Below are positions 5,433 through 64,000 of a stretch of 64,000 bases of DNA, one piece after another. Numbering within the stretch: the first letter of the stretch is position 1; each line of letters opens with the position of its first letter. The notes under the pieces are model-generated. The model was not told the origin of the DNA and did not search any database. It saw only the letters and a list, made by a program, of their open reading frames with translations. The stretch is from a virus (Duplodnaviria; Caudoviricetes): the IMG/VR virus record IMGVR_UViG_3300005544_000020, positions 172,091 to 236,090 of that record; one strand, 5' to 3'. The translations under genes and the position numbers were made by a program.

Positions 5433-5435
5433 GGC

Positions 5436-9339: not shown

Positions 9340-9369
9340 GACCTTAATCGCGATTTCTGAAAAATACTT

Positions 9370-9588
9370 TTAGTCGGGCCCGACGCTTGAGAAGAGAGGG
9401 TCGATCCGGATCTCGAAGCGCCGGCGCGCGACCTCGAGATCATTGAAAGGCCCAAAGATGGCATCAGTCTCCATGCAGGCGACGTAGTTCTCTTCCATCC
9501 CACCAGGGCCTTGCAGCCAACCCCAGAAAGGACCGTAGTCCGACTGCTTCAGGATCCGGACTTCGAAGCCGGTCTTGGGGTCGATCAT
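9370..9588 (-). CDS. hypothetical protein
   Basis: ATGA-coupled start MIDPKTGF. Confidence 0.6.
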   Translation of the reverse strand: MIDPKTGFEVRILKQSDYGPFWGWLQGPGGMEENYVACMETDAIFGPFNDLEVARRRFEIRIDPLFSSVGPD

Positions 9589-10028
9589 GTCTTCTCCTTT
9601 TCGGCCCAATGATCCGTCCCCGGCTTCAGATTCCGATCCGTCTTGCATTCGTTGGCGCCATGCTCTCCACAGCAGCCCCATTCGCCGCACTGATCGGGCC
9701 AGACCATCTGCTGGAGCTTGAACTCGGCGCTCTCCAAGGCCTTCCTGGCCGCGTGGTGAAGACCGGGATTCGTGTCGAGTTCATGCAGGATCAGGTAGAA
9801 CAGATTCCGAGCCTCGCTCGTCGTGAGCGGGCCGTCCTTGGAGCTTTCCGGAACGTACTTCTCCATGACGTGCCCCTGCTTCAAGCACCAAAGGCATCCT
9901 TGCCTTTCAAGGCTCTCGACCTTCTCCTCGGCATGGAAGTCGTTTGAATAGACTCCCATCCTCACTCCGTCCTCGTAGATGGCGCCGCCAGGGCAGAAGA
10001 CGATGTGCAGGGGCTTGAAGTCGTTCAT
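9585..10028 (-). CDS. hypothetical protein
   Basis: ORF track; ATGA overlaps. Confidence 0.7.
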   Translation of the reverse strand: MNDFKPLHIVFCPGGAIYEDGVRMGVYSNDFHAEEKVESLERQGCLWCLKQGHVMEKYVPESSKDGPLTTSEARNLFYLILHELDTNPGLHHAARKALESAEFKLQQMVWPDQCGEWGCCGEHGANECKTDRNLKPGTDHWAEKEKT

Positions 10029-16729: not shown

Positions 16730-16969
16730 CTACTCTTCCTCATCGTCATCTTCGGGGAATGGATCGTCCACGATCAGCGTGCTTGAGGCCCGGTTTACCT
16801 GTAGAAGATACCCGCCCTTCTTCAGATAGGCAACGAGCTGATCGCATTCCTCTTTGGAATGGACTTTCGCAGTCACCTGATCGAGGCACTTGTCATGTGG
16901 CGAATTCTTCCGAGCCTCGATGACGTACATCAGATGGCTCTTGGTCTCGTCGGGCTTATATTCGCTCAT
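16730..16969 (-). CDS. hypothetical protein with acidic tail
   Basis: ATGA-coupled start MSEYKPD; ends in TAG. Confidence 0.65.
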   Translation of the reverse strand: MSEYKPDETKSHLMYVIEARKNSPHDKCLDQVTAKVHSKEECDQLVAYLKKGGYLLQVNRASSTLIVDDPFPEDDDEEE

Positions 16970-18777
16970 GCAAGTACCGGGCTCGCAAGGATCGTCCAGG
17001 CCGACAGCTTCACATGCTGCTTCCACTCGTTGGTACCGTACTCGATCATCTCCGAGGTATGGAGGCGGCTGAGATCGTTCAGGAACGTCCCGCTGACGGT
17101 CTTCTGCAGCTTCTCCGCGAGCTCCTCTCGACCGATCCACTTCGGGAATACCGTCCGGCAGGCCTTGAGGATCGCCTGCTGCGGCCCGGTGACGGCGCTC
17201 AGGACCTGACTGAAGACGCCGTCCGGCGTCACCTGCCACTGAACCTTGGGAGCGTTTCTCAGCCCATCGTTCGTGAGGATGACGGCCTTCTCATTCGAGG
17301 GCGTCGTGTAGTACTCGACCAGATGCAACGTCTTCAGCCGCGAGAGGTCGTTCAGGAAGCTGCCCGTCACCTTCTTCCCCAGCCATCCGGCAAGCTGTGG
17401 CCGCGAGACATGATCAATGTCGATCGCGTTGAACTCTCGGAGAGCCCGCAGCATTGCGATCTGAGGTCTGGAAAGAGGCTCTCCATCAGATTGAAGTTCC
17501 CCTTCCGGCTGATCATCATCAGAAGCGTCCGGCGCCGGCATCCGTGCGATCCGTCCTTCATCCGCGATCACGGGGGTGCGGCGGGCATTTTCCTGAGCTT
17601 CGACTGCATCATTCAAATCCTTGCTCAGCTTCCCGCACCAGTTGTCGATCTCTGCCTTCATCTCGAGAAGCTTGTCGAACCTGCCGGCAGCCCGTTCGAT
17701 GTTCCAGACGACCTGGTGGACCGCCTTGATGGTCTTCGCGTCGACGGCGGGGATCTCTACGACCTTTTCTACCGCCTTCTCGACGGTCACGGTCACCGTC
17801 TTCTCGGTCAGCTTCCGCTCCGCGACGGTCAGGCGGCCCTTCAGATTCGCGATCTCCTGCCGGAGCTCCTCCTCGGTCCGAGCCTTGTTCTCGGCATGAA
17901 CCGGGATATCGGCAAGTTGAGGAAGCAGGTGCTTGATGGACTCCGGCGTCGGCGGGATCATCGCCGCGGCCGGCGTCCCGGGCTCCGGATGGGTCGTCAA
18001 GACCGGTCCTACGTGCAGCAGCTTTCGGTCGGTGGCGACAGCCTGGCCGAAGGCCCAGAAATGGCCGGGCTTCATTTGCTTGAGACCAAGTTCGAACTCC
18101 GCGCGGTCGGCCCGGCGCACGGACATGAGATCCACGGCCCGGTCGACGTCCAGGTCCTCGATCGTCCGGCCGATGAACCGGTTGAGGAGCTCGGCGCTCG
18201 CGTTCTTCGACAGTTTCCCCAGGCGCTGAGTGGCGTAGACGGCACAGAAGCCGCGCTTCCGGCCGTCCGTAGCCAGGTCGATCATCGAGCTGTAGGCTTC
18301 GCTTTCGCCCATGCCGCGCTCGGGGCAGAGACGATGAGCTTCGTCCACCATGACCACGACGGGGTGCCAGAGCGTCTTCGGCGCGTTCATCAGCGCATCG
18401 AGGAAGTTCTTGGCCCAGGTATGGCGATCAGGCTCCTTCAGATCGTACAGATCGAAGATGGCGGAGGCCCCATTCTCGAGGAGCGTATAGCACAGCATCT
18501 CGGCCGTCCGCGGATCGGTGGGTGTTTCGCCATTCTTGCCGGCCTGGACGTATCCGAAGCGTTCGCGGAGGGTCCCGAATTCGCCTTCGCGGTCGATGAT
18601 GAAGGTCTGGACCTTGTCGAAGAGCTGTTCCGCTAGGCGCCGGAGGGTTCGGCTCTTGCCGCCGCCGGAGGAAGCTTGAACGAGGCAGCGGGTAGTGAGG
18701 AAGGTCTTGAGGTCGATTTCGACGGGAGCGCTATCGGTCCCGTTCCCGATGATGATATTTCCAAGAGCCTTGCCCAA
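16966..18777 (-). CDS. HerA/DUF87-like P-loop ATPase with coiled coil and C-terminal winged-helix-like repeats
   Basis: ASSGGGKS (Walker A), VMVDEAH (Walker B), GRKRG, ATQR; two GxFLNDLSRL repeats at the C-terminus. Confidence 0.85.
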   Translation of the reverse strand: MGKALGNIIIGNGTDSAPVEIDLKTFLTTRCLVQASSGGGKSRTLRRLAEQLFDKVQTFIIDREGEFGTLRERFGYVQAGKNGETPTDPRTAEMLCYTLLENGASAIFDLYDLKEPDRHTWAKNFLDALMNAPKTLWHPVVVMVDEAHRLCPERGMGESEAYSSMIDLATDGRKRGFCAVYATQRLGKLSKNASAELLNRFIGRTIEDLDVDRAVDLMSVRRADRAEFELGLKQMKPGHFWAFGQAVATDRKLLHVGPVLTTHPEPGTPAAAMIPPTPESIKHLLPQLADIPVHAENKARTEEELRQEIANLKGRLTVAERKLTEKTVTVTVEKAVEKVVEIPAVDAKTIKAVHQVVWNIERAAGRFDKLLEMKAEIDNWCGKLSKDLNDAVEAQENARRTPVIADEGRIARMPAPDASDDDQPEGELQSDGEPLSRPQIAMLRALREFNAIDIDHVSRPQLAGWLGKKVTGSFLNDLSRLKTLHLVEYYTTPSNEKAVILTNDGLRNAPKVQWQVTPDGVFSQVLSAVTGPQQAILKACRTVFPKWIGREELAEKLQKTVSGTFLNDLSRLHTSEMIEYGTNEWKQHVKLSAWTILASPVLA

Positions 18778-52641: not shown

Positions 52642-52691
52642 TCCGGCCTCTCTCAGGACGCGTTACATTACGTTACAGTGACACTGAACCC

Positions 52692-52773
52692 CAGGATCCG
52701 TGCCGCCGCGCCGCCGTCTTGCTGCGCGCTCGTAACCCGCAGGGAGCGTGGGCAAACGGCGACACGGGTCCTG
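52692..52773. promoter_or_regulatory. 82-nt imperfect hairpin in the primase 5' leader
   Basis: CAGGATCCGTG/CACGGGTCCTG, CGCCGT/ACGGCG, TTGC/GCAA, CGCGCTC/GAGCGTG. Confidence 0.5.
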
Positions 52774-52835
52774 AAGATCATCGAAGACATTTTCTCTTAC
52801 TGTCTCCCCTGCGTTGCGTTGCGAGCGCGAAGCAA

Positions 52836-52863
52836 AGTCTAGCCGCGACATGCCGAAGATCAA
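52836..52863 (-). promoter_or_regulatory. putative sigma70 promoter for the primase gene
   Basis: TTGATC-N16-TAGACT with A/T-rich upstream tract. Confidence 0.45.
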
Positions 52864-52917
52864 GAACAAAGCAAGTTTTTATGATGAAAAAAATGGAATT
52901 CCTTTTAGTCGATACCA

Positions 52918-54630
52918 TTACTTGGGACCCTTGTCGACGGCAGCCACAAACCACTTCGGAAGCAGCCATCCGCAGGTCTGCATGAACCGATCGAAGCCGG
53001 AATCCAGCACGAACGTATCGCAGAAATCGGCGTCGTGCCGGACGGTCCGGCCGTAGGACTGGCAGAGTTTCAGCGCCGCCTGCATCGGGAGATACGAGCC
53101 GTCGATCTTCATCCTGGCTTTCACGAATTTGTCTTCGGTGCCGGGCCACGGGACCTTCGCGATCATCTGGAAACGCGCCAGGTCGTCATGGAGATCGATC
53201 CCCTCATGGAAGCCGGATGCCAGGAGGATGCTGTCTGGCTTGGCCTCGTGGACGCGAAGCATGGCGTCCTTGTCCCGGTTCGTGAACATGTCGAGCGTGA
53301 TGATCCGCGGGCTGTTCACGTTCTCCCGGATCAGCCGGCAGAGACGTTCGCTGTGACCGTGGATGATCCCTCGCTGCCCCGGGTAACGGTCCATGATCTC
53401 GGAGATTTTCCCATAGAGGCTGGGCAGCGTCGCCTCGAGGTTCTGCCAGCCCATGTTGCCGGCGTACTCCCGGAAAATGGGCCTGTTTTCCACTGGGAAA
53501 GTGGAGGGAATATCCACGAACTGCAGGTTCGCCTGGGGGATTCCGAGGTTTCTCGCCCAGGTCTTCGCGTCCAGGATCGTGGCCGAGAGAGCGAGCACCG
53601 TATCGGCCTTCGACCAGAGCATTTCCTTCGTGAAAGGCCGGATGAAAACGGGGCGGATCCGGAGCTTCCGGGTGCGCTCGCCGGGCTTCTCCCCTTCGAT
53701 GAAATCCTCGGTGACGTCGATCACCCATTCGGTGAGGTCGAGATACCGCAGGAGGTCCTCGATCCTGGACAGGAGCTCCTTGAACTGGTCCGTTTCGCTG
53801 GCGCTGAGGCCTTGGGGGACGTCCTCGCTGACGCCGACGGAGTCCTTGTCCCCGACCGCCTTCTTGATGCGCGCGACGACGCGCTCTTTTTCCAGCCAGG
53901 CGAGGACTTCTTTGGTGTCTTTCAGGCCCAGATCTAGCTTGATATCGAGCAATCGGAGGAGCTTGTCTGAGAAAATGATTTGAACAAACCCTAGGAGAAC
54001 GCTCTCGGTATTATGGGCTTCGTCGATGATGAGCAGTTCTCGTTTTCCGAAGCGGCCCAGCCTCTGCTGGAAGAGAAACGAGTGGAAATTGTAGAGCGTG
54101 ATGGGGTTCTCCACGGCCTTGGCGAGCTGCCTCCAGTAGTCGCATTTATGGGCGTCGGGTGGCAGGTCGAAGGAGTTCGCGGCTTCAACGGATCCGTACT
54201 TCAGACACTCCTGGATCAGGCCCTTTTTCTTCGAGTTTCGGCAGTAGCCCCGGGAGGCGTCTTTATACTTGATGGGGTCGTAGCTGCAGGGGTAGTTTGC
54301 GCGGCCCTTGATGGGTTCGACCATGGGAGACGCGAACTCGTTCGCGTACTGGGACATCAGGATCTTCTGGGCCGTGATCAGGTGAGTTTTCCCGCCGCGG
54401 GCTTCCATCTCCCGGGCGTGCGCGATCGCCACATAGCTCTTCCCGCTTCCGACGGGCGCCTGGATCGCGATGAAATTCTTGCCCTCGTGGAGAGCCTTTT
54501 CGGTGGCCTCAATGGCGTGGATCTGCTCGGGCCTGGGACTCTTCCCCTCAGGGAAGAAATCAAGCGCGGACCTCTCTCCAAAAGCTTCAGACACGGCCGG
54601 AGTATAACGCGGAGAATTGGGGAGCGCCAT
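52918..54630 (-). CDS. DinG/Rad3-like SF2 helicase (Fe-S type)
   Basis: QAPVGSGKS, RANYPC plus three more Cys, IIDEAH, LSAT, EGIDL, KVPWP, QSYGRTVRH..D. Confidence 0.9.
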   Translation of the reverse strand: MALPNSPRYTPAVSEAFGERSALDFFPEGKSPRPEQIHAIEATEKALHEGKNFIAIQAPVGSGKSYVAIAHAREMEARGGKTHLITAQKILMSQYANEFASPMVEPIKGRANYPCSYDPIKYKDASRGYCRNSKKKGLIQECLKYGSVEAANSFDLPPDAHKCDYWRQLAKAVENPITLYNFHSFLFQQRLGRFGKRELLIIDEAHNTESVLLGFVQIIFSDKLLRLLDIKLDLGLKDTKEVLAWLEKERVVARIKKAVGDKDSVGVSEDVPQGLSASETDQFKELLSRIEDLLRYLDLTEWVIDVTEDFIEGEKPGERTRKLRIRPVFIRPFTKEMLWSKADTVLALSATILDAKTWARNLGIPQANLQFVDIPSTFPVENRPIFREYAGNMGWQNLEATLPSLYGKISEIMDRYPGQRGIIHGHSERLCRLIRENVNSPRIITLDMFTNRDKDAMLRVHEAKPDSILLASGFHEGIDLHDDLARFQMIAKVPWPGTEDKFVKARMKIDGSYLPMQAALKLCQSYGRTVRHDADFCDTFVLDSGFDRFMQTCGWLLPKWFVAAVDKGPK

Positions 54631-54636
54631 CAAATC

Positions 54637-54664
54637 TTGACGCGACTGGTAAACGCGCTATACT
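54637..54664 (+). promoter_or_regulatory. sigma70-type promoter, class B, at the strand switch
   Basis: TTGACG-N16-TATACT with GGTAAAC in spacer. Confidence 0.75.
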
Positions 54665-54718
54665 CTTGCGCGTGGAGAACAAGCTGACGTTGGCTGAAGC
54701 CTGGTCACGGTAGGGGGA

Positions 54719-54973
54719 ATGATGGCGCCTCAGTGGGGATCTGCAGAGACCTACGAATGCCTGCGCTGTGACACCACCCAAAAAGAACCCAAGAGATCCA
54801 AGAGATCCCAGGGAGCGATCGTCCGCTGCCGTGGCTGCGGTCAGGCGGTTTATCTTGTGACCGAAAAAGCGCCTCCGGCGGAGCCCAAAGCCAAGGTCTG
54901 CAAGACCTGCGGGACCAAGCTCCGAGCGTCCAACAATCGGGAGCAGTGCAGCGTGTGTTGGGGGACCCGATGA
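54719..54973 (+). CDS. multi-CxxC Zn-ribbon protein
   Basis: Four CxxC pairs; GGGGA RBS. Confidence 0.75.
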   Translation: MMAPQWGSAETYECLRCDTTQKEPKRSKRSQGAIVRCRGCGQAVYLVTEKAPPAEPKAKVCKTCGTKLRASNNREQCSVCWGTR

Positions 54974-55182
54974 TCACCTTTCTGAACAGCCCGGAAGACA
55001 TGAAATGGCTCAGAGACGTGCACATTCCAGACCTGCCCTCGGAATATGAAGCCGCCGTAGTCCACGGTAATGAGGACTCTCCGTCCAAAATAGAAGCGTA
55101 CAGATCACCAAATCCAGCTATTCAGGAAACACCCCAAATCTTCGTCGCTGATCAGGATGGTGTCCTCAAACTCCAAACTTGA
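54970..55182 (+). CDS. hypothetical protein
   Basis: ATGA-coupled start MITFLNSPED. Confidence 0.7.
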   Translation: MITFLNSPEDMKWLRDVHIPDLPSEYEAAVVHGNEDSPSKIEAYRSPNPAIQETPQIFVADQDGVLKLQT

Positions 55183-55185
55183 AGT

Positions 55186-55653
55186 TTGGGTATCTGGAAT
55201 AAGATGGACAACTCCGCCGCCTTCCGCAGATCAAGATGGGGTTGTCCCACAAAAAAACGCCAAAAATCAAGAGTCCATCCCATCCGGATAGATTGGCCTC
55301 TGCAAATCAACTCCTTCCGATCTGGCGATTTGGTCGTAGCCAGATCTTTCAAGGCCAAGGCCGTGGCGTCTTTTGACAGATTGGATGGCCATAGCCCAGG
55401 CGAGGAGCCGTCCTTGATGGATTCGATCGATCCTAGGGCCTATTCCGGCCTTCAGGCGGCCCGAGATCTGGATGCGGACCGGCTCGGGCAAGTCCAGATT
55501 GGAAGCTCAGAGTTCCTCGTCAGATCGAGGAGATCTATCAGGCCAGCGAAGGGTGTCTCCAGCGCCTGGTCAATCTGGCCCTCCCCTAGGGAGGAAGCAA
55601 ATTTAAAGCCTCTACAGGCAGATTCCTATCTGCCCTATCTGGATACCATTTAA
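55186..55653 (+). CDS. hypothetical protein (uncertain)
   Basis: Fills the plus-strand operon gap; TTG start; atypical composition. Confidence 0.4.
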   Translation: MGIWNKMDNSAAFRRSRWGCPTKKRQKSRVHPIRIDWPLQINSFRSGDLVVARSFKAKAVASFDRLDGHSPGEEPSLMDSIDPRAYSGLQAARDLDADRLGQVQIGSSEFLVRSRRSIRPAKGVSSAWSIWPSPREEANLKPLQADSYLPYLDTI

Positions 55654-55666
55654 AGAGGGGTGAATT

Positions 55667-56104
55667 GTGGCGGCCGAAGCCAAAAAAGAGCCCTTTAAAA
55701 GAGTCCTTTCTGAGAACGTCGAGATCTATTACGGGTGGAAGGACGCGCACGTCGTGGTCAAGGCCAGATTGCCGATCCCGCTCAAACCTTGGTTCTCGAA
55801 GAAGGTCCCGGCAGATTTGGTCAAGGTCTTCAAGCAGACCTTCCGCGGCGCCGCAGATTACGGCGAAGGCAAATCCAGCCTGGCTCTTGTCGATCCGATC
55901 CAGATCGAGATCCAAGAGGACTGCAAGGTCAGATTTGGCTTCCAGGATAGGCACCTCGAGCTGTCGATGAAGCAATACGGAATCTGGATGAAGCTCAGCT
56001 TTACCTTCGAAGAGATCAAATTGGGGTTGCTGGCGTTGAATGAAGCGTCAGGCTGGGCAGAGCTCTCGAAGGACGTTCGGGATCTGCAGGGAGTCCCAGA
56101 TTAA
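55667..56104 (+). CDS. hypothetical protein
   Basis: GAGGGG RBS; GTG start. Confidence 0.7.
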   Translation: MAAEAKKEPFKRVLSENVEIYYGWKDAHVVVKARLPIPLKPWFSKKVPADLVKVFKQTFRGAADYGEGKSSLALVDPIQIEIQEDCKVRFGFQDRHLELSMKQYGIWMKLSFTFEEIKLGLLALNEASGWAELSKDVRDLQGVPD

Positions 56105-56229
56105 GGACGATCAGCCGGCAGCCAAAATCGTGGTCGATGATCGTGCTCGGCGCCATGACCAAGGGGAGAGAGTCTTGAGTCGGTTTTGAAGATCTGGTAG
56201 ATTGAGACCATTACTGGAGAGGATTGAAG

Positions 56230-56550
56230 ATGAAGATCACCAAGGAGTACCGGGAATTCGCGAATAAGACTCTCGAAGGATTCAAGGAACAGCTCCGGCA
56301 ATCTGTGGCCTTTTCCTGCGCCTGCTGCCAGCAGCAGAAGCAGAAAGGCGAGGCTGCAGGAGCGCATCTCTTTAAGCCCGAGGATCCTGCGCTCTGGAAG
56401 GCGATGGAGGTCCCGGGTGGCCTGCACCGCGTCGGGGTCTATGCTATTTGCCTCGAATGCATGGATGCGTTCTCCGAGGACGTTATTCAGAAGAAGGTAA
56501 TCGCCTATCTGGGCAGTCAGGGTCTATTTGGTGGTGGGCCGAAAACCTGA
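56230..56550 (+). CDS. hypothetical Zn-binding protein
   Basis: CACC..CLEC; GGAGAGG RBS. Confidence 0.7.
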   Translation: MKITKEYREFANKTLEGFKEQLRQSVAFSCACCQQQKQKGEAAGAHLFKPEDPALWKAMEVPGGLHRVGVYAICLECMDAFSEDVIQKKVIAYLGSQGLFGGGPKT

Positions 56551-57002
56551 TGGATCCGTACTCGGTATTAGGGCTTCCTCAATCTGCAAGTGCAGAAGAA
56601 ATTCGGCGCTCATTTAGGAAGCTGGCTGCAAAATACCATCCAGATAGGAACCCTGGAGACCCAAATGCGGAAAAAGTCTTCAGGGAGGCTTCGAAGGCCT
56701 ACGAACTTCTCACGAACCCGAGAAAGCATGCCTCGGATCATACTCAAAGGCCTCAACCGACGCCGGCACCGACTGTCGTGCCGGTCGTCATCCGCGGAGG
56801 CCGGAAAAAGCGCGGCGCGCGCCGCGGATACATGCCGCCAGGCCATCAACCGCGCCCCCATCCGCCGATAAACCCGGGCTCATCGGTTCCACTGAAGTCG
56901 GACGTCAAGCTCGGAGGCGTCCCACTCAAAGATCTCCCGCCTTGGATGCCGCGAGCTCCTCTTTTCGGGAATGATCCGCTGGACAGAGGCGGCCCGTCCT
57001 GA
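56550..57002 (+). CDS. J-domain (DnaJ-like) protein with P/R-rich tail
   Basis: DPYSVLGL..EIRRSFRKLAAKYHPDRNPGD..F.E..KAYELL. Confidence 0.9.
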   Translation: MDPYSVLGLPQSASAEEIRRSFRKLAAKYHPDRNPGDPNAEKVFREASKAYELLTNPRKHASDHTQRPQPTPAPTVVPVVIRGGRKKRGARRGYMPPGHQPRPHPPINPGSSVPLKSDVKLGGVPLKDLPPWMPRAPLFGNDPLDRGGPS

Positions 57003-57008
57003 TACAAT
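56980..57008 (+). promoter_or_regulatory. sigma70-type promoter followed by a 5' hairpin (57015-57037)
   Basis: TGGACA-N17-TACAAT with extended -10 TG. Confidence 0.65.
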
Positions 57009-57074
57009 AGGGCTGCGATCGGTTCCCCACCGATCGCGGAGTCAACCAGGTTTCCGCCCGGCGCCGGAGATGCC

Positions 57075-57824
57075 GTGGAGTTCTATCCTCGCGGGAACTG
57101 GATCGTAGGAACCCCCATCTGGGTCCTCGAAGATCAGGACGAGCAAGAACGCATCAGCATGATGCTCTGTCCGCACCCGCAATGGAAGGAGATCGCGCGG
57201 GCCCAGGAGACGAATCCTGAGGACGGGAAAACGTATCTCGTGGTCTCGGAGGAGTGCACCGTCTGCGGAGCCAAGCGCCTTAGACTGCTGCCGGCTGGAT
57301 TCCCAGAGAACGAGCCGTTCGATTATTCGATCCCTGAAAAAGGACCGTGGTACGAACGGCTCTACAACCTGGGCAACTTCGTGATCCTGGTGAGGAGGTA
57401 CAATAACAATCCCGAGGTTCCTCCTTCCTACATGACCAGGACCGAGACGCAAGCCGGAAATGTTCACACCGGAGTCGTCCAACTTGAGACTCTTCTTTTT
57501 TCGCCGGCCGCGCTCGAACAGATCGTCGACATGGAACGCATGATGAAGCTTGGGCCGAAGCGCTACGCGGGCTACCGCATCCTGAAGGAAGGCCGCAAGA
57601 CGAAAGAAGACAAGGCGGATATCCAAGCGCACGCCGACGCGCTTGCAAAAGTCGTTCAGGACATTGGTCCGGAGTCGATCGCGGCCGCGCGGGCAATCTT
57701 CGAAGCCGAGATCGATCAGGAAGCTGCAGATCTTGAAGAGTACCAAATTCAAATGATGGAAAAGGAAGTCGCTGAGCGCAAGGCTCAGATTGAGAAGCGC
57801 CGGGCCGGCAAGAAGCCCAAATAA
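57075..57824 (+). CDS. hypothetical protein with C-terminal coiled coil
   Basis: GGAG RBS; GTG start. Confidence 0.75.
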   Translation: MEFYPRGNWIVGTPIWVLEDQDEQERISMMLCPHPQWKEIARAQETNPEDGKTYLVVSEECTVCGAKRLRLLPAGFPENEPFDYSIPEKGPWYERLYNLGNFVILVRRYNNNPEVPPSYMTRTETQAGNVHTGVVQLETLLFSPAALEQIVDMERMMKLGPKRYAGYRILKEGRKTKEDKADIQAHADALAKVVQDIGPESIAAARAIFEAEIDQEAADLEEYQIQMMEKEVAERKAQIEKRRAGKKPK

Positions 57825-57843
57825 AAAATTTTCCAAATTACTG

Positions 57844-57872
57844 TTGACATGGCACATCTGAAGTGATACTTT
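57844..57872 (+). promoter_or_regulatory. sigma70-type promoter for the putative structural operon
   Basis: TTGACA-N17-TACTTT, extended -10 TG, A/T UP tract. Confidence 0.65.
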
Positions 57873-57982
57873 CTGTGTGGCTTCCCCCCCCGGGGCGCCA
57901 AATGTTGTTGTAGGCGTTTTTCGAAGGCGTCGTAGGTTTTGGAAAAGTCGGGCCGCCCGCTCGACAAATCCGAGGGACCTCG

Positions 57983-60367
57983 ATGCCTGATTCTGCCGCC
58001 GACGCGGCCGTTCAGCAACCCGGACAGACTCCGTCTGCTCCGAAGGTTCTCTCTCGCAAATCTTCAAAACCAAAAGCAGCTCCCGAGCACGTCGAACAAA
58101 TCATCAGCCTGCATAAACAGGGCTACACAAATAAGCAGATCGCCGATCAATTTGGGATCAACGGTCAGAGTGTAAATGGCGTTATCGCGAGCGCGAAGCG
58201 TCAGGGTCTGCTTCCGCCGTCGGCTCCCGCCGCCAAGGGCGCCGTCGCGACCGCCTTGAACTCGGGCCTTCTCGGAAATCCAACCGTCGAGCCTACCCCC
58301 CAACTCGTGCCGGTCATGCCCCCCAGTCATAATGTGCAGGTGAATCCGCCCATGAACAACGGAATTCCGCAACATCATCAGCAGCCCGCGCCACTGTCGT
58401 CCTCATCGACCCAGGATGACTTCTCAGGCGGGAGGCCCGTTGTGGGCGCTTCCGGCGGATTTACGGGCGCAGGCCAGGTTGTGAAGTACACGGTCGAGCG
58501 CATCGCTCCTCCGGACGGGCTGCTCGGGACTCACTACGGGTCCTTCACAATCGAAGAGCTGGGTCAGAACTACGGCGAAGGCACCTATAAGGTGACCAAG
58601 CACGATCCTACCCAGAAATTCGCGGTCGAATTCATCCAGAAGATCGGGCCCAGCTACGGCCCGGCCCGCGCGACGCCGCATTCCTCGCAGCGCACGCAGG
58701 TTCCCGCCCGGCCCTTCTTCCAGCGCGCCTGGAACCCTCAGGCTCCACAGGCCGAGGGAGAGGAGACGGAACGTCCGGCCTTCCGGCCCATCTACCAGCG
58801 GCCTCCGGAGAACAACACCGCCTTCCTCGAGATCGCGCGGCAGCAGCAGGTCGGCAACACTTCGGCCATGGAAACGGCCCTCAACATGGTCCAGACGATG
58901 CATCAGACATCGCTGGCGAGCATCGAGAACGCCCGCAAGGGCGGCCCCGACAACGTGATGATCAATATCCTGCGCGAGCAGCAGGAGATCACCAACCGCC
59001 GCTGGGAAGAGGAGCGCAGAATCCAGGACCAGCGTCGGAAGGATGAAGAAGAAAAATTCCAGCGCCGGCAGGACGAAGAGCAGCGCCGCTGGGAGCGCGA
59101 TCAGCAGGCCGAGCGCGATCGCCATCAGCGCGAACTGGAGCGCATCAGCCGGGAGACCGAAGCCCGGGAGAAACAGCTCCGGGTCGAAGCTGAGGAGCGC
59201 GAGAAGCGGGCGAACGAAGAGCGCCGCTTCCTCCTCGATCTCGAAGAGAAGAAAATCCAGCTTGTCCGCCAGGAAGCCGAGGCTTCCCAGCGTCGACTGG
59301 AAGCTGAACTCCAGCGTCTCCGGGAAGAGACCAAGGAGCGGACCGAGCAGGCCAACCGGATCGTCGCCGAGAACCAGGAAGCGACGACCCGGCATATCGA
59401 AGAGTCCCAGAAGCAGATCCAGGAGCAGCTAGACCGCGAGCGCGAGCAGCTTGAGCGCGAACACAAGCTCAAGGAGAAGTCCCTCGACAAGCAGCACGAG
59501 CTCGAGGGTCGCATGCTGGAGATCCAGAAGGCCAACATGGAGAACTCCGGCGGCGACCAGATCTTCAACACCATCAACACGGTCATCAAGGAAGTCTCCA
59601 AGGGCCTCGAGAAGGTCGTCGACCTCAAGAAGCTCGAGTCGATGACGCCGGAAGCCCAGATCGCCCACGTCGCCCGCGGCGCCCAGGCGCCGGCCGACGT
59701 TGCGCCTCCTCCTCAGCAGAGAGCGCAGCCTCAGCCCCAGCCCCAGGCGCAGCCTCAGCCTCAACCTCAACCGCAACCTCAGCCCGTCCAGGAAGAGGTT
59801 CCGGTCCAGCAGGCCGAGACTCCCGCTCCTGCGGCTCAGCAGGCACCGCAGAGCCCCGGCGAAGCGATCGTGGAGAACCGCATGGAATCAATGATCCGCG
59901 AGAGCCTGAAGAAGCCCTTCTTCCAGGAGGTCCTGAAGGAGTGGGCGCTGCACGTCGAGGATGCCGCGGAGACCAAGACGATCGACGCGACGACCTTCGC
60001 CAATCTCTATCTGGAGATGATGCGCGATCCGCGCAACGACGAGGCGCGGCAGGGCTGTGCGGCGTTCGCCACGTTCATGAAGCCCCGGAGCTGGAAGAAG
60101 CTCCTCGGGGTGCTGGCCGACGCGCTCGACGCGGAAACCCTCGCTACCTTCCAGCGGAAGGAAGCCGAAGAGTTCTACAAGCAGTTCAAGGCCATGGTCC
60201 TCGAGCAGATCACGGAGTACTGGGAGCAGTTCCTTGCCTCGCGTCAGCAGAGAAACGCGGGCGCCCAGGCTCCAGGCACCAACGGAACCTCCGCCCCTGC
60301 CGCTCCCGTAGAGCAGTCAGGAGCCACCCCGGCGCAGAACACGGATCAAACCGGCCAGGCGCCGTAA
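57983..60367 (+). CDS. 794-aa protein: N-terminal HTH, long E/R/Q coiled coil, QP repeats, helical C-domain
   Basis: LHKQGYTNKQIADQFGINGQSV (HTH); roughly 200-aa charged helix; (QP)n tract. Confidence 0.85.
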   Translation: MPDSAADAAVQQPGQTPSAPKVLSRKSSKPKAAPEHVEQIISLHKQGYTNKQIADQFGINGQSVNGVIASAKRQGLLPPSAPAAKGAVATALNSGLLGNPTVEPTPQLVPVMPPSHNVQVNPPMNNGIPQHHQQPAPLSSSSTQDDFSGGRPVVGASGGFTGAGQVVKYTVERIAPPDGLLGTHYGSFTIEELGQNYGEGTYKVTKHDPTQKFAVEFIQKIGPSYGPARATPHSSQRTQVPARPFFQRAWNPQAPQAEGEETERPAFRPIYQRPPENNTAFLEIARQQQVGNTSAMETALNMVQTMHQTSLASIENARKGGPDNVMINILREQQEITNRRWEEERRIQDQRRKDEEEKFQRRQDEEQRRWERDQQAERDRHQRELERISRETEAREKQLRVEAEEREKRANEERRFLLDLEEKKIQLVRQEAEASQRRLEAELQRLREETKERTEQANRIVAENQEATTRHIEESQKQIQEQLDREREQLEREHKLKEKSLDKQHELEGRMLEIQKANMENSGGDQIFNTINTVIKEVSKGLEKVVDLKKLESMTPEAQIAHVARGAQAPADVAPPPQQRAQPQPQPQAQPQPQPQPQPQPVQEEVPVQQAETPAPAAQQAPQSPGEAIVENRMESMIRESLKKPFFQEVLKEWALHVEDAAETKTIDATTFANLYLEMMRDPRNDEARQGCAAFATFMKPRSWKKLLGVLADALDAETLATFQRKEAEEFYKQFKAMVLEQITEYWEQFLASRQQRNAGAQAPGTNGTSAPAAPVEQSGATPAQNTDQTGQAP
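59726..59785 (+). repeat. coding hexanucleotide repeat (CAG/CAA-CCN) encoding (QP)n
   Basis: cagcctcagccccagccc...caacctcaaccgcaacctcagccc. Confidence 0.8.
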
Positions 60368-60378
60368 TTCGGAGAGAG

Positions 60379-61179
60379 ATGGGCGAGAGGTACTTCCAGC
60401 TCGGACGAGCGGACCAGCCACAGTCTGCCATGGGAACTCGTCGGCAGTCCTCTGTGAAGAGGATGTCCCAGAGCGCCCTCATGTCTCCGCCTCCCGAGAC
60501 GGGTCAGGTCATCCGGACGGCTCTTCCCGATACCTTCGACGGCATCCGCTACGAGATCGGGAAGATGGTCAACTACGTCAAGCAGGCGGCCAAAGACCCC
60601 TTCATGATCGAGCACACCAACCGGATCGTGGACGGCTATTCCCAGGCCGCGGCTGCGATGAACGGGAACTCCCTCGCCGGCATCGACCCCCGGAGCCTCG
60701 CGATCGAGGCCCTCGAGGGCTGGTGCCGTCAGCATTACGCCTACGTCAACGATCCGCCGAACATCGAAGTGATCCAGACGCCCAAGCGGATGGTGAAGCA
60801 GACGATGATCCCGGCGGAAGTGACGCGGGACGTCATGGCACCGATCTTCGAAGCCCTGGTGGTCGCCATCGGGCCAAAAATCAACGAATACGAAGTCCCA
60901 GGCCTCACGGCGGGGGATTGCGATGAGGGCTCGACCCTCATGAACGCCCACTGTGCGGCCTGGGGGAACGGCACCAAGGAGATGTCCGCCGCGGCGCCGA
61001 CCGAAAAGATCCGGCCCATCCGGTTCCGCTTCGGTGGCAACGGCGGGACCCTCCATCACGTTTGGGCCCGGCCTTATTTGGGCGAAGAGGGCATCGACAG
61101 CGATCTGACGGAGCCTGGCTACAATTTGGGCGACTACTCCAAATTTGAGCAGTACGAGGAAGTCGAGGTGGAGCTGTGA
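60379..61179 (+). CDS. transglutaminase-like (papain-fold) protein, intact Cys-His-Asp
   Basis: YVNDP..E.IQTP, GDCDE, HHVW, DSD. Confidence 0.75.
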   Translation: MGERYFQLGRADQPQSAMGTRRQSSVKRMSQSALMSPPPETGQVIRTALPDTFDGIRYEIGKMVNYVKQAAKDPFMIEHTNRIVDGYSQAAAAMNGNSLAGIDPRSLAIEALEGWCRQHYAYVNDPPNIEVIQTPKRMVKQTMIPAEVTRDVMAPIFEALVVAIGPKINEYEVPGLTAGDCDEGSTLMNAHCAAWGNGTKEMSAAAPTEKIRPIRFRFGGNGGTLHHVWARPYLGEEGIDSDLTEPGYNLGDYSKFEQYEEVEVEL

Positions 61180-61808
61180 GTAGAACGCTCGGCCTCGTGA
61201 AGATCCCGGCTCAGACAGATTACGACCTGAACCGGATGACGGATCGGGTGCTCGATGCCCGGACCGACCATATCTACTTCGACTTCTCCCGGGTGATCGG
61301 GCCTCAGTACGCCAAGATCGTCGAGAAGATCTCGACGGACGAGGGCAGCCGGATCCCGGCGCACAACAACAAGACTCTCTTCCTCGAGGCGATCGATCTG
61401 TGGTGCCGCCGGCGTCTTGGCGCCGATCAGCCCCAGAATCCGAGCGCCAAGAAGATCGAGGAGCCGCGCGACGCCATCGTCCATGCCATGGATCAGTGGT
61501 ACAAGGCCCTCGAGCTCGACAACCCGGCTGAGTTCAAGCTGTCGCGGCAGGGTCCTCCGCCGGTCTATGTGGGGGACGACGTAGATGCCGTCGCCACCCT
61601 GATGGGACTGGCGGCGTGCCTCGATATCACCCCGATGCGCTTCGTCTTCGGCGGCCGGAAGGTCGACGGCAAGGAGGACTACCAGCGCGTTTGGGCAAAG
61701 ATCAAGGCGGATGGCAACTGGTACGACTCGGACATCATGACCCCAGGGGCCGTGCTGGGTGATCGCCCGGACTTCCCTCACTATAAGGAAGTGGAGGTGC
61801 CTCTATGA
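61176..61808 (+). CDS. transglutaminase-like paralog, catalytic Cys and His lost
   Basis: GDDVD in place of GDCDE and YQRVW in place of LHHVW; C-terminus aligns with 60379..61179. Confidence 0.7.
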   Translation: MSRTLGLVKIPAQTDYDLNRMTDRVLDARTDHIYFDFSRVIGPQYAKIVEKISTDEGSRIPAHNNKTLFLEAIDLWCRRRLGADQPQNPSAKKIEEPRDAIVHAMDQWYKALELDNPAEFKLSRQGPPPVYVGDDVDAVATLMGLAACLDITPMRFVFGGRKVDGKEDYQRVWAKIKADGNWYDSDIMTPGAVLGDRPDFPHYKEVEVPL

Positions 61809-62512
61809 GGACCATCCGCTACCAACTGGGCGCCGAGGAACTGATCGAGCTGGGCGGCGACAGCAAGGTCATCCTGAAGAACCGGAAGCCGTTTCTGGCT
61901 GGCCGGGTCGTGAAGCTCGGGATTCCGGAAGAGAACATCCTGGATACCTTGGCCATGGTCGGGAAGTTCGTGGCGGAGAGGCTCTCTTTGGCTCTCGACA
62001 CCCTTTCCCAGATCCTGAATGTGCCTCTGGGTGTCATTTCGCAGAGCGTGGACGTGGCGAGCCTGGTCATCTCGGATCTGCTCAAGAAGGTTCCCTCTAT
62101 CGGGAATCTTCTCGCGGAGATCCTTCTTCTGGGCGGAGCCTTGATGAAGTTCGGGCTTTCGATCCCAGGGCTCGTTCTTGGAGGCCTTGCCTGCCTGCTG
62201 GCCGGCATCGCCCAGGCCATGGACGGCCGTCCGGACACCCAGGCCCAGATCGACGCCGCCAAGGGGTCGATTCTGAACCAGGCTTCCGAGGATCTGAAGG
62301 ATCGGGTCGAAAAAATTATCGGAACCATCGGGATTTCAGAGGACAACCTGGCCCCCGACGTCACCGTCAGCGGCCAGCCTTTGACGACGCCCGCAGGCAC
62401 TTCTCTTTCGGGTGCGCCCCCTCCCCCCGTGCCCGGACTGAGCAATGCCTTGGCAGTCGGAGTCCCAGTCGTAGGCGCCGTGGCCTTGGTCACGGCGTTG
62501 GCCATGAAATGA
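61805..62512 (+). CDS. membrane protein, possible virion internal-membrane component
   Basis: Central hydrophobic helices and a C-terminal TM anchor. Confidence 0.65.
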   Translation: MRTIRYQLGAEELIELGGDSKVILKNRKPFLAGRVVKLGIPEENILDTLAMVGKFVAERLSLALDTLSQILNVPLGVISQSVDVASLVISDLLKKVPSIGNLLAEILLLGGALMKFGLSIPGLVLGGLACLLAGIAQAMDGRPDTQAQIDAAKGSILNQASEDLKDRVEKIIGTIGISEDNLAPDVTVSGQPLTTPAGTSLSGAPPPPVPGLSNALAVGVPVVGAVALVTALAMK

Positions 62513-62572
62513 TGGGGAGAAATTCGCCTAGGTCGGGCCTGTCGTCCGGCCGGCGTTTTTAAGGAGAACGAC

Positions 62573-63298
62573 ATGAAGAGCAAGAAGAAGAGCGCCGGCA
62601 AGGGCGACGGCAATGTCACCGTCGATCTGGGTGAGAAGCATCACCAGAAGATCGAGCGGATGATCGAGTCGAAGCTCGCCACCGCTGGCATGTCCGGCGC
62701 TCCGTCGAGCCTCGCGGCGAAGCTCGGCAGCAAGTCCGGCGCCTCGGGCCGTCCCGGGATGTTCGGCGGGGGCTACAAGCCCTGGTATTCGCGGTTCGGC
62801 AAGCCCTGGCTGGGTCAGGGTGAGGCCACGATGACGGCCTTCGCCGCCCCCGGGCGTCGGTTCAACATCATTCCGATCGAAGTCCAGACCGTGAAGACGG
62901 CGGACGTGCTGACCGGGATGGCGCTGGGCCTGATCGGTAACCGGGCCCTCGTCCGGTTGGTGCCGAAGCTCTGGGCCACGGCCGCGAGCAACGCGCTGAT
63001 CAATGAAGGCATCGCCTTCGCCGTGGGCCTCGTGCCCATGCTGTTCCAGCGCAAGGCGATGACGGTCGGTCTGGCGCTCCCCGGCGCGGTGTACTTCGCC
63101 GGAACGCTGGTCGACATGCTGTACAACGCGGTCGGCATGCCGGCGAAGCCCGCCAACATGTCCGGCGGCGCGTCGGCGACCCCGGCGGATCCGAATCAGG
63201 GCGCACGGGCGCGCCTGGCTCAGATTCAGCAGCGGATTAACACTCCGCAGGCGTCCCAGCAGCGCTCCCTTCCGCGGGTGATGGCGGTAGCGCAGTAG
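62573..63298 (+). CDS. G/A-rich multi-TM membrane protein, possible virion component
   Basis: Basic N-terminus, about three hydrophobic segments; ends TAG TAG. Confidence 0.7.
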   Translation: MKSKKKSAGKGDGNVTVDLGEKHHQKIERMIESKLATAGMSGAPSSLAAKLGSKSGASGRPGMFGGGYKPWYSRFGKPWLGQGEATMTAFAAPGRRFNIIPIEVQTVKTADVLTGMALGLIGNRALVRLVPKLWATAASNALINEGIAFAVGLVPMLFQRKAMTVGLALPGAVYFAGTLVDMLYNAVGMPAKPANMSGGASATPADPNQGARARLAQIQQRINTPQASQQRSLPRVMAVAQ

Positions 63299-63310
63299 TA
63301 GCTAGACCCC

Positions 63311-63490
63311 GCGCGGAGGGGGGTGCGTCCGTTGTCCTGCTTGGGGGGGGAAGCGTCGGGCGGACGCTTTCGAAGCAGGGTGGCGTGACGCCCCCCCTGG
63401 CGCGCACCGAAGTAGGGTAGTTGCAGTTGGTGTAAGAAGTACCGGCGGGACGATAAAACCTACCGGAGGCGACCCAGTCTCGAAAGGAGA
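63311..63490 (+). ncRNA. candidate structured RNA / 5' leader of the capsid-like gene
   Basis: Nested stems GCGCG..GGGGGG-T-GCGTC/GACGC-CCCCCC..CGCGC, CCTGCTT/AAGCAGG, AAGCGTC/GACGCTT, CCG-GTAGG/CCTAC-CGG, and GTCTC/GAGAC over the SD. Confidence 0.55.
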
Positions 63491-63495
63491 CAACC

Positions 63496-64000
63496 ATGTT
63501 CAGGCCCCCTGAGTATGCGGCGCTGATCAACCCGATTGCCTGCAACGCGTTCGCGATGCGGTGCGAGGGCCGGAATGACCTCGAGCAGACGCTCGTCGTC
63601 GATACCGGTCTGACCCCGGACGGCACGCCGATCAACGCGGTGGTTCTCGATGCCACCACGCAGTCGCAGGTCTGCGATGCGAAGCTGTTCGTGTGCCCGT
63701 TCATCAAGCTGCTGACCCCGGTCAGCCCGGACTACGCCGGAGCCTTCTTCCTGGCGCGGTTCACCTTCTCGATCGACGGTGAGAAGGTCGTGAACGATTC
63801 GGCGGTCGAGATGCACCTCGTGTGCCCGGCCTGCCAGATCGCGGTCCAGCCCTCGCCGGATTCGTCCGACGCCACGCTGGTCCGCCTCCTCCTCGGCCAG
63901 AGCGAGGACGAGGTCCTGGGCTGCTGCCAGATGTTCTTCCTCCCCAACGGCACGCGCATCGTCGCGACGCTGTCGGGGATCCCGACGGGCGCGGGGGCGA
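63496..64000 (+). CDS. beta-rich, Cys-rich protein, candidate vertical jelly-roll capsid protein (truncated by window edge)
   Basis: Translated by hand: MFRPPEY...FTFSIDGEKVVNDSAVEMHL...MFFLPNGTRIVATLSG; AAGGAG RBS; missed by the ORF track. Confidence 0.45.
   Translation, partial: MFRPPEYAALINPIACNAFAMRCEGRNDLEQTLVVDTGLTPDGTPINAVVLDATTQSQVCDAKLFVCPFIKLLTPVSPDYAGAFFLARFTFSIDGEKVVNDSAVEMHLVCPACQIAVQPSPDSSDATLVRLLLGQSEDEVLGCCQMFFLPNGTRIVATLSGIPTGAGA

What the first reader, a model, noticed from the sequence alone, without database searches (positions are those of the whole stretch)
57983..64000. Possible unusually large tailless (vertical jelly-roll) bacterial virus
Seen: a plus-strand module of coiled-coil protein, transglutaminase-like pair, two membrane proteins and a beta-strand-rich ORF (FSIDGEKVV...FFLPNGTRIVATL). 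I see no terminase, portal, HK97 capsid or tail genes in 64 kb. Established: membrane proteins plus jelly-roll capsids characterise PRD1/PM2/sphaerolipovirus-like viruses, whose genomes are mostly 10-30 kb. Inference: a genome over 64 kb with a jumbo-phage-like accessory load but a jelly-roll virion would be a little-described lineage.
Basis: inference. Interest (0 to 1): 0.75.

Follow-up and report, generated by a model that had tools for sequence, protein, structure and literature searches.

The report
Giant bacterial virus lacking tailed-phage genes
The stretch opens the late structural gene block of a roughly 350,000-base virus of soil bacteria. That block encodes two jelly-roll proteins, many membrane proteins and collagen-like fibres, but no recognisable tailed-phage capsid, portal, terminase or tail gene, so the virus may be the first very large non-tailed, membrane-containing bacterial virus; this is not yet proven.

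Summary
The open reading frame (ORF) at 63496 is cut by the contig end. Its full form is 240 aa and folds with confidence as a single jelly roll. The next gene, 196 aa, is a second jelly roll.

The window is not a 64-kb genome. It is the end of a 236-kb contig of a virus of about 350 kb. I walked 61 kb beyond the window end and 43 kb before the contig start through identical assemblies. Only about 5-24 kb remains unseen.

In about 340 kb, Pfam and PHROG profiles find no terminase, portal, HK97 capsid, sheath or baseplate.

The late block continues for 57 kb or more. It has four collagen-like fibres with a shared N-terminus, other fibre families, and 23 predicted membrane proteins among its distal 36. 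These are mostly C-terminally anchored and carry an R..LG(Q) leader.

Against the idea:
- No A32/FtsK-type packaging ATPase is present, only a 603-aa HerA-like ATPase among replication genes.
- No double jelly-roll protein was found.

I give a non-tailed membrane-containing virus about 45% and a tailed jumbo phage with hidden head genes about 40%. The scan holds no look-alike window.

The parts
57075..57824 (+). 249-aa protein with a C-terminal coiled coil. It is the first sizeable gene of the plus-strand late block.
   Evidence: ORF list. There is a weak PHROG head-scaffolding hit, E 2e-4, over the coiled-coil part only. It is called as a gene in the identical assembly L016.
57983..60367 (+). 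794-aa protein with an N-terminal helix-turn-helix, a long E/R/Q-rich coiled coil, a Pro-Gln repeat and a C-terminal helical domain.
   Evidence: PHROG 3855 HTH DNA-binding protein, E 4e-9. Pfam HTH_7 scores 22.4 bits against a cut-off of 23.8. Sequence.
60379..61179 (+). 266-aa protein with a Cys...His...Asp pattern. It is a candidate papain/transglutaminase-fold cysteine protease and my candidate for the leader-removing maturation protease.
   Evidence: The gene call is from the identical assembly (L016:7807-8607). No Pfam, PHROG or PDB sequence match was found. It is paralogous to the next gene. The fold was not tested.
61176..61808 (+). 210-aa paralog of the previous gene that lacks the Cys, so probably an inactive partner.
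   Evidence: BLASTP E 7e-14 and 25% identity over 218 columns. The Cys position reads Asp-Val-Asp.
61805..62512 (+). 235-aa membrane protein with 3 predicted TM segments. Its N-terminus ends in ..EELIELGG, which resembles a double-glycine leader.
   Evidence: Hydropathy scan and sequence. No family hit.
62573..63298 (+). 241-aa protein with a basic, Gly-rich N-terminal part ending ..PWLGQ, followed by a hydrophobic membrane domain. Its third-position G+C (GC3), used here as a proxy for expression, is 0.89.
   Evidence: Sequence. GC3 rank. Weak MgtE-like hit, E 0.08, over the hydrophobic part.
63496..64000 (+). First 168 of 240 codons of a single jelly-roll protein (ORF F). It is the most codon-biased gene of the late block and my candidate for a major shell or shell-associated virion protein.
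   Evidence: The full length comes from the identical assembly (L016:10924-11646). AF2 gives pLDDT 84.5 with a beta sandwich at residues 1-185. GC3 is 0.92-0.93, top 5 of 384 genes. There are 60 homolog clusters among 1.84 billion representatives.
16966..18777 (-). 603-aa HerA/DUF87-type P-loop ATPase in the replication/repair block. It is the only candidate for a non-terminase DNA translocase.
   Evidence: Pfam DUF87 (HerA central domain), E 1.3e-11. PHROG 2666 'terminase large subunit', E 4e-11. No match to Pox_A32 or FtsK_SpoIIIE at E<=1. No PDB sequence match.

Best explanation
The stretch is the head of the virion-morphogenesis operon of an uncultured virus of soil bacteria of about 350 kb. 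The virus is probably not a conventional tailed phage.

Shown:
- The operon runs on the plus strand for 57 kb or more past window position 57 kb.
- It encodes, in order: an HTH/coiled-coil protein; an active/inactive pair of Cys-His-Asp paralogs; two membrane proteins; a highly codon-biased 240-aa single jelly-roll protein (ORF F); a 196-aa second jelly-roll protein; four collagen-like fibres that share one N-terminal adaptor; further fibre families; a 1211-aa glycosyltransferase; and an array of small, mostly C-terminally anchored membrane proteins with an N-terminal R..LG(Q/E/G/A) leader.

Inferred:
- The membrane proteins populate a virus-specific lipid membrane.
- The two jelly-roll proteins form, or decorate, a protein shell assembled on that membrane, as in PRD1 or sphaerolipoviruses.
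- The Cys-His-Asp protein removes the leaders during maturation.
- The fibres, glycosylated by the large glycosylation cluster elsewhere in the plus-strand gene block, are anchored to the particle through their common N-terminus.

How the DNA is packaged is open. The only candidate motor is a HerA-like ATPase among the replication genes.
For: Genome scale and completeness:
- The window is the end of a 236,090-bp contig.
- Identical assemblies extend it by 54,648 + 6,119 bp after the window end and by 42,969 bp before the contig start.
- One 266,490-bp contig carries genes of both extensions and of our contig up to 145 kb but not at 155 kb. This leaves about 8-24 kb unseen, of which about 2.7 kb is covered by a 95% relative.

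No tailed-phage hallmarks:
- PHROG scans covered 47 of the 50 ORFs of 300 aa or more in the contig and 30 proteins of the extension.
- Six-frame Pfam searches of the contig gave nothing above cut-off for Terminase_6N, TerL_ATPase, Terminase_6C, Phage_capsid, Gp23, Phage_portal, Phage_sheath_1 and GPW_gp25.
- Precomputed Pfam hits on all called genes of the extensions show no phage structural family.

Jelly rolls:
- ORF F has pLDDT 84.5. The next gene has pLDDT 81.0, with its sandwich at residues 64-196.
- ORF F has GC3 0.92-0.93 against a median of 0.71.
- Its closest relatives add a coiled coil and a C-terminal TM anchor.

Membrane proteins:
- In the distal half of the block, 23 of 36 proteins have a TM segment, 13 have a C-terminal anchor and 15 carry the leader motif.
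- Among the 264 minus-strand genes the shares are 11%, 2% and 8%.
Against: - The two jelly-roll families are not detectably related to each other (hhalign probability 0.2%).
- No A32 or FtsK family ATPase is present, and there is no P-loop protein in the late block.
- The HerA-like ATPase is long (603 aa) and sits among replication and repair genes.
- No double jelly-roll protein was found (and the PHROG scans).
- The ESM Atlas clusters closest in shape to ORF F are labelled mostly Uroviricota.
- Every known prokaryotic virus above about 100 kb is tailed (my knowledge).
- About 5-24 kb is unseen.
- Proteins under 300 aa in the 236-kb contig were not scanned against PHROGs.
- TM helices were called with a simple hydropathy rule.
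Confidence: 0.45

Rival explanations
1. This is a tailed jumbo phage (Caudoviricetes). Its terminase, portal and HK97 capsid genes lie in the unseen 5-24 kb or are too divergent for profile searches. ORF F and the 196-aa protein are capsid decoration or cement proteins, or fibre accessory domains. The collagen-like proteins are tail or head fibres. The membrane proteins serve ejection, lysis, superinfection exclusion or remodelling of the host envelope.
For: - Base rate: all known phages above 100 kb are tailed (my knowledge).
- The collagen-like proteins hit tail-fibre PHROGs (E down to 6e-32).
- Jelly-roll cement proteins and fibre tips of tailed phages match ORF F as well as capsid proteins do.
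- The Atlas shape neighbours of ORF F are labelled Uroviricota.
- There is a sub-threshold Phage_portal hit (E 0.0045, 13.1 bits against a cut-off of 39.1) in the 185-aa gene at contig 5286-5843.
- A neighbouring 381-aa protein resembles ADP-ribosyltransferase/MuF-type polyvalent proteins of tailed phages, though weakly (scores 0.87, TM about 0.3).
- The gene content is that of huge phages: 22 or more tRNAs, RF-1, peptide deformylase, ribonucleotide reductase (RNR) and ligases.
Against: - The tail-fibre PHROG hits lie in the Gly-X-Y repeat part only.
- A head gene cluster would have to fall by chance in about 2-7% of the genome, next to a tRNA array and to RNR and deformylase genes.
- A whole tail module (sheath, tube, baseplate) does not fit there, and none was detected in about 340 kb (and the PHROG scans).
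- Terminase is normally the easiest phage gene to detect.
- A late operon in which two thirds of 36 consecutive proteins are membrane proteins is not a known feature of tailed phages (my knowledge).
Confidence: 0.4
2. The block is not a virion module. It encodes surface or envelope structures made in the infected cell (fibres, glycans, membrane proteins), or the element is a non-viral giant extrachromosomal element. In that case the jelly rolls are carbohydrate-binding or adhesin-type domains.
For: - ORF F also matches BcsB, CBM6/35, malectin and PNGase-type sandwiches.
- The 196-aa protein matches GOLD domains and Ena spore-appendage subunits best.
- A roughly 25-kb glycosylation cluster, a VWA protein and response-regulator genes lie in the same plus-strand block.
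- No virion hallmark of any kind was identified.
Against: - The record is classed as viral in IMG/VR.
- The gene content is typical of huge phages.
- Co-directional late-operon organisation, leader motifs shared by dozens of proteins, and a very high codon bias in a small beta-sandwich protein all fit a mass-produced structural component.
- No conjugation or partition genes were seen in the parts scanned.
Confidence: 0.1

Closest known systems
Sphaerolipovirus-type viruses (P23-77, HHIV-2, HCIV-1; vertical single jelly-roll capsid proteins)
Tectiviridae (PRD1) and Corticoviridae (PM2): internal-membrane phages with a double jelly-roll capsid
   Different: No double jelly-roll protein and no P9/A32-type ATPase were found. 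Those genomes are 10-15 kb (my knowledge).
Huge/jumbo tailed phages (Caudoviricetes above 200 kb)
   Same: They share genome size, tRNA arrays, translation-related genes, ligases, helicases, integrase, methyltransferase and two large co-directional gene blocks.
   Different: No terminase, portal, HK97 capsid, sheath or baseplate family is detectable in about 340 kb. No protein is longer than 1211 aa. The late operon is dominated by membrane proteins.
Sulfolobus polyhedral virus 1 (Portogloboviridae), PDB 6oj0
Giant viruses of eukaryotes with glycosylated collagen-like fibrils (Mimivirus-type)
   Same: Collagen-like fibre genes occur together with a large virus-encoded glycosylation cluster. 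BFVD shape matches of ORF F include collagen-like proteins of cedratvirus, klosneuvirus and indivirus.
   Different: The translation and selenocysteine features reported by earlier agents for this genome are of bacterial type. No NCLDV capsid or A32 family is present.

Membership tests
Caudoviricetes (tailed phages) | Terminase large subunit | tested here: inconclusive
   No hit for PF03237 or PF03354. PF17289 gave only 13.7 bits, inside a helicase ORF. PHROG scans of 47 of 50 large ORFs and 30 extension proteins found none, apart from a weak 'terminase' PHROG hit on a HerA-type ATPase. About 5-24 kb of the genome is unseen.
Caudoviricetes (tailed phages) | HK97-fold major capsid protein | tested here: inconclusive
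   PF05065 and PF07068 gave no hit at E<=1. There were no PHROG capsid hits. Only two proteins could be folded, so a divergent HK97 protein cannot be excluded.
Caudoviricetes (tailed phages) | Portal protein | tested here: inconclusive
   PF04860 gave one sub-threshold hit (E 0.0045, 13.1 bits against a cut-off of 39.1) in a 185-aa gene at contig 5616-5828. The adjacent 588-aa protein is proline-rich and has no family.
Caudoviricetes (tailed phages) | Tail (sheath, tube, baseplate or tail fibres) | tested here: inconclusive
   PF04984 and PF04965 gave no hit. The tail-fibre PHROG hits of the four collagen-like proteins cover the Gly-X-Y repeats only.
Vertical single jelly-roll viruses (Sphaerolipoviridae-type) | Two single jelly-roll major capsid proteins encoded together | tested here: inconclusive
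Vertical single jelly-roll viruses (Sphaerolipoviridae-type) | FtsK/HerA-superfamily packaging ATPase next to the capsid genes | tested here: not met
   No Walker-A protein occurs in the 115 kb of late block and extensions. PF04665 and PF01580 gave no hit at E<=1 in the contig. The only HerA-type ATPase is 603 aa long and lies 45 kb away on the other strand.
Vertical single jelly-roll viruses (Sphaerolipoviridae-type) | Virus-encoded membrane proteins in the structural module | tested here: met
   31 of 68 proteins of the block, and 23 of its distal 36, have a predicted TM segment, against 11% of the minus-strand genes. This is a hydropathy prediction only.
Double jelly-roll viruses (Tectiviridae, Corticoviridae, NCLDV) | [quoted passage not shown] | tested here: inconclusive
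   PF04451 gave no hit. No PHROG capsid hit was found. The beta-rich candidates examined (the 374-aa pair) are repeat fibres. Most candidates could not be folded.
Transglutaminase/papain-fold cysteine peptidases | Cys-His-Asp catalytic triad on the papain-like fold | tested here: inconclusive
   The motif is visible in the 266-aa protein and the Cys is lost in the 210-aa paralog. No Pfam, PHROG or PDB sequence match was found.

The most novel reading that the evidence does not exclude
This is the first giant (about 350 kb) non-tailed, membrane-containing virus of bacteria. Its shell or shell-associated layer is built from small jelly-roll proteins on a membrane filled with tail-anchored, leader-processed proteins, and it is covered with glycosylated collagen-like fibres. 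That would be a bacterial counterpart in scale to the giant viruses of eukaryotes. The lineage is missed by virus-detection pipelines because it has none of the usual hallmark genes.
Probability: 0.4. Interest if true: 0.95.

Novelty: new variant of a known kind. Interest (0 to 1): 0.8.

Why it matters
Every prokaryotic virus known above about 100 kb is a tailed phage. The jelly-roll, membrane-containing lineages of bacteria and archaea stop near 30 kb. A 350-kb member would break that size limit. It would show that large genomes also arose outside the HK97 lineage in bacteria, and it would bear on how giant viruses of eukaryotes arose.

It would also expose a blind spot. The relatives of this virus, including a 352,816-bp contig, sit in metagenomes but not in the viral collections searched here, possibly because no hallmark gene is recognised.

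Even if the virus proves to be tailed, two things are new: a late operon with dozens of tail-anchored, leader-bearing membrane proteins, and a head gene set invisible to current profiles.

Tried and rejected
- Joining the contig end to its start as a circle. The read-through is out of frame and there is no terminal repeat, so the contig is simply incomplete.
- The 588-aa protein at contig 3523-5289 as a portal. It is proline-rich and disordered in its middle and has no family, so I rejected it.
- The 381-aa protein at contig 8610-9755 as a capsid protein. It looks like an ADP-ribosyltransferase/RES-type protein.
- The 574-aa protein of the extension as a sheath. The Atlas suggests another fibre, but its model is poor.
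- The 374-aa tandem pair as a double jelly-roll capsid. They are repeat fibres of a large, length-variable family.
- The 380-aa cluster at 116-131 kb as head genes. One member is a PolX polymerase.
- tblastn of the 574-, 464-, 387- and 344-aa proteins and of two distant ORF F relatives against 50,697 GenBank phages gave no match.
- Searches of IMG/VR with ORF F, its family, the 588-aa family, the 196-aa family, the 269-aa protein and an exact DNA word found no relative.
- A profile of the ORF F family against PDB sequences gave nothing meaningful.
- A gut phage contig carrying a relative of the HerA-like ATPase has no Terminase_6N hit. That is uninformative.
Full report
**1. Where the window lies**

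The window is bases 172,091-236,090 of a single 236,090-bp IMG/VR virus record. The record is classed 'linear' and CheckV estimates about 90% completeness. The contig has no terminal repeat. Joining its end to its start gives an out-of-frame read-through, so the ORF at 63496 is cut by an assembly break, not by a genome end.

**2. The genes of the finding**

| Window position | Product | Evidence |
|---|---|---|
| 57983-60367 | 794 aa; N-terminal HTH, long charged coiled coil, Pro-Gln repeat | PHROG 3855, E 4e-9; Pfam HTH_7 just under cut-off |
| 60379-61179 | 266 aa; keeps a Cys...His...Asp pattern | paralog of the next gene, E 7e-14; no Pfam, PHROG or PDB match |
| 61176-61808 | 210 aa; has lost the Cys | same calls |
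| 61805-62512 | membrane protein | hydropathy and sequence |
| 62573-63298 | membrane protein | hydropathy and sequence |

'Transglutaminase-like' therefore remains a motif-level reading. The fold of the 266-aa protein was not predicted.

**3. The beta-rich ORF**

An ENA contig identical to window 52573-64000 shows the ORF complete at 240 aa. Several other assemblies break inside this gene at residues 174-188, as ours does. Downstream fibre genes share about 80% identical stretches of about 685 nt, which could confuse assembly.

An exhaustive HMMER search found 60 homolog clusters among 1.84 billion representatives.
- The closest relatives (330-360 aa) carry the same roughly 185-residue domain followed by a coiled coil and a C-terminal transmembrane anchor.
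- More distant relatives carry the domain alone, behind an N-terminal extension.

AlphaFold2 with 40 sequences gives pLDDT 84.5 and pTM 0.75. Residues 1-185 form an all-beta sandwich and the tail is disordered.

Fold searches identify a jelly-roll type sandwich but no specific family.

| Search | Best result | Main matches |
|---|---|---|
| Foldseek PDB | weak | BcsB, SPV1 (probability 0.99), birnavirus, polyomavirus and hepevirus capsids |
| BFVD | weak | collagen-like proteins of giant viruses, unnamed proteins of uncultured tailed phages |
| ESM Atlas | TM 0.56, 167 residues | an unnamed cluster labelled mostly Uroviricota |

The fold alone cannot tell a capsid protein from a decoration or fibre domain.

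ORF F has third-position G+C (GC3) of 0.92-0.93 against a genome median of 0.71. That puts it in the top five of 384 genes, which suggests very high expression.

**4. A second jelly roll**

The next gene (196 aa) is a conserved core gene. It has 70 homologs of nearly constant length with 45-91% identity, one of them on a 352,816-bp JGI contig. AlphaFold2 (pLDDT 81.0) gives three N-terminal helices and an eight-strand sandwich at residues 64-196.

The two families are not detectably homologous to each other (hhalign probability 0.2%).

**5. The rest of the genome**

I extended the contig through assemblies carrying identical proteins.
- After the window end: 54,648 bp, plus 6,119 bp from a JGI contig.
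- Before the contig start: 42,969 bp.
- All joins are at 100% identity, and the two extensions do not overlap.

One 266,490-bp contig carries genes of both extensions and genes of our contig at 35, 76, 125 and 145 kb, but not at 155 kb or beyond. Arithmetic on those lengths leaves about 8-24 kb unseen. A 95%-identical relative covers about 2.7 kb of that with more tRNA genes. The genome is therefore about 348-364 kb, which fits the 352,816-bp relative.

**6. What the late block holds**

The plus-strand block that begins near window 54-57 kb continues for about 57 kb past the window end. It contains, in order:
- four collagen-like proteins (687, 681, 780 and 396 aa) sharing one N-terminal sequence;
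- a 563-aa protein;
- paralog pairs of 272/275 and 374/374 aa. The 374-aa pair are repeat fibres of a large family of variable length;
- a 1211-aa glycosyltransferase;
- a response regulator;
- a dense array of small proteins.

In the distal half of the block:

| Feature | Distal 36 proteins | 264 minus-strand genes |
|---|---|---|
| Predicted TM segment | 23 | 11% |
| C-terminal anchor | 13 | 2% |
| N-terminal R..[LIM]G[QEAGS] motif | 15 | 8% |

. Some leaders read ..ELIELGG, like double-glycine leaders; that resemblance is from my own knowledge. An earlier first-stage note on this genome had pointed out the LG(Q) motif. I confirm that it is enriched.

The block ends in an array of 18-22 tRNA genes. 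The part before the contig start holds a glycosylation cluster of about 25 kb, a VWA protein, RNR, peptide deformylase and a second PTH2 gene.

**7. Hallmark genes**

PHROG scans of 47 of the 50 ORFs of 300 aa or more in the contig, and of 30 proteins of the extension, found replication, repair and nucleotide-metabolism genes. These include helicases, a primase, DNA and RNA ligases, a methyltransferase and an integrase. They found no capsid, portal, terminase, sheath, tube or baseplate family.

The only 'tail' hits are to the Gly-X-Y repeats of the collagen-like proteins.

Six-frame Pfam searches of the contig gave:

| Families | Result |
|---|---|
| Terminase_6N, TerL_ATPase, Phage_capsid, Gp23, Phage_sheath_1, GPW_gp25, Capsid_NCLDV, Pox_A32, FtsK_SpoIIIE | nothing at E<=1 |
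| Phage_portal | one sub-threshold hit, 13.1 bits |
| Terminase_6C | one sub-threshold hit, 13.7 bits, inside a helicase ORF |

Precomputed Pfam hits for every called gene of the extensions include no phage structural family.

The single non-helicase translocase candidate is the 603-aa ORF at window 16966-18777 (minus strand). It matches Pfam DUF87/HerA (E 1.3e-11) and a PHROG named terminase large subunit (E 4e-11). It lies among replication and repair genes, and no P-loop protein occurs in the late block.

**8. Weighing**

For a tailed phage, terminase is normally the easiest gene to find. To explain its absence, the head genes must either fall by chance into the unseen 2-7% of the genome, next to tRNA, RNR and deformylase genes, or be unrecognisable. 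A tail module does not fit in the gap at all.

The membrane-protein-rich late operon and the two highly conserved or highly expressed jelly-roll proteins are what a membrane-containing, non-tailed virus would show.

On the other side stand the base rate (no non-tailed prokaryotic virus above about 30 kb is known), the unspecific fold matches, the missing A32/FtsK-type ATPase, the lack of an identified double jelly-roll protein, the Uroviricota labels of the Atlas neighbours, and the fact that I could fold only two proteins.

My odds:
- about 45% for a non-tailed, membrane-containing virus in which these jelly-roll proteins are shell or shell-associated components;
- about 40% for a tailed jumbo phage with hidden head genes;
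- about 10% for a non-virion or non-viral reading.

**9. Mechanism proposed (inferred)**

- Tail-anchored virus proteins insert into the host membrane and define a patch or vesicle.
- The jelly-roll proteins assemble on it, as capsid proteins do on the PRD1 membrane (review PMC6356626).
- The Cys-His-Asp protein removes the R..LG(Q) leaders during maturation, with its inactive paralog as partner.
- Collagen-like fibres dock through their common N-terminus and are glycosylated by the virus's own enzymes.

Each of these steps is testable (see next steps).

**10. Comparison and novelty**

No relative was found in 50,697 GenBank phages or in IMG/VR, apart from the record itself. Relatives occur only in soil and rhizosphere metagenome assemblies. 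The scan's own index holds no look-alike window. Three literature searches found no description of a large non-tailed bacterial virus.

Noticed in passing
L045:6021-9239 and L046:10166-15811 (about 58-64 kb past the window end): An array of 17-22 tRNA genes follows the late block directly. It includes two tRNA-Met, three tRNA-Pro and three tRNA-Ser (ARAGORN).
   Followed up: partly
L016:12448-14511, L019:10910-12955, L019:15102-17444, L021:10001-11191: Four collagen-like fibre genes (687, 681, 780 and 396 aa) share one N-terminal sequence and about 80% identical DNA stretches. These repeats may be why many assemblies, including this contig, break near ORF F.
   Followed up: partly
window 61805-61870; extension proteins of 134 and 387 aa (L039:5743-7323): Some leaders read ..E(E/M)LIELG(G/Q), which resembles the double-glycine leaders cleaved by papain-fold C39 peptidases. 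A Cys-His-Asp protein is encoded two genes upstream (the resemblance is from my own knowledge).
   Followed up: no
L023:374-11014 and L026:6921-20641 (about 4-36 kb before the contig start): A glycosylation cluster of about 25 kb has at least eight glycosyltransferases, three epimerase/dehydratase genes and several methyltransferases. It is followed by a second PTH2 gene (L012:3237-3605).
   Followed up: no
L021:13276-15534: Two tandem 374-aa paralogs (51% identical) carry GGNTxGxTGT...TLSQ repeats and a C-terminal beta domain. They belong to a family with more than 300 homologs of 300-650 aa, often several per contig.
   Followed up: partly
L001:8610-9755 (contig 8610-9755): A 381-aa protein's Atlas neighbours are ART-PolyVal, RES and AcrIF11-type ADP-ribosyltransferase clusters (scores 0.86-0.87, weak).
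   Followed up: no
L008:2291-3436, minus strand (contig 128291-129436): A 381-aa protein matches family X DNA polymerases (PDB 3b0x, E 2.5e-11). It is the only DNA polymerase-like gene I came across.
   Followed up: no
G000:C1:5616-5828: There is a sub-threshold Phage_portal match (E 0.0045, 13.1 bits against a cut-off of 39.1) in a 185-aa gene that overlaps the stop of the 588-aa proline-rich gene.
   Followed up: partly
whole genome: The gene layout is two giant co-directional blocks: about 190 kb on the minus strand (replication, repair, metabolism) and 150 kb or more on the plus strand (late block, tRNAs, glycosylation, DnaJ/NIF/ART genes). Genes are short, and only 50 of 384 are 300 aa or longer.
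   Followed up: partly
P0296 (homolog of the 196-aa protein): A relative 61% identical lies on a 352,816-bp JGI contig. That size is close to my estimate for this genome, yet no relative is in the viral collection searched.
   Followed up: no
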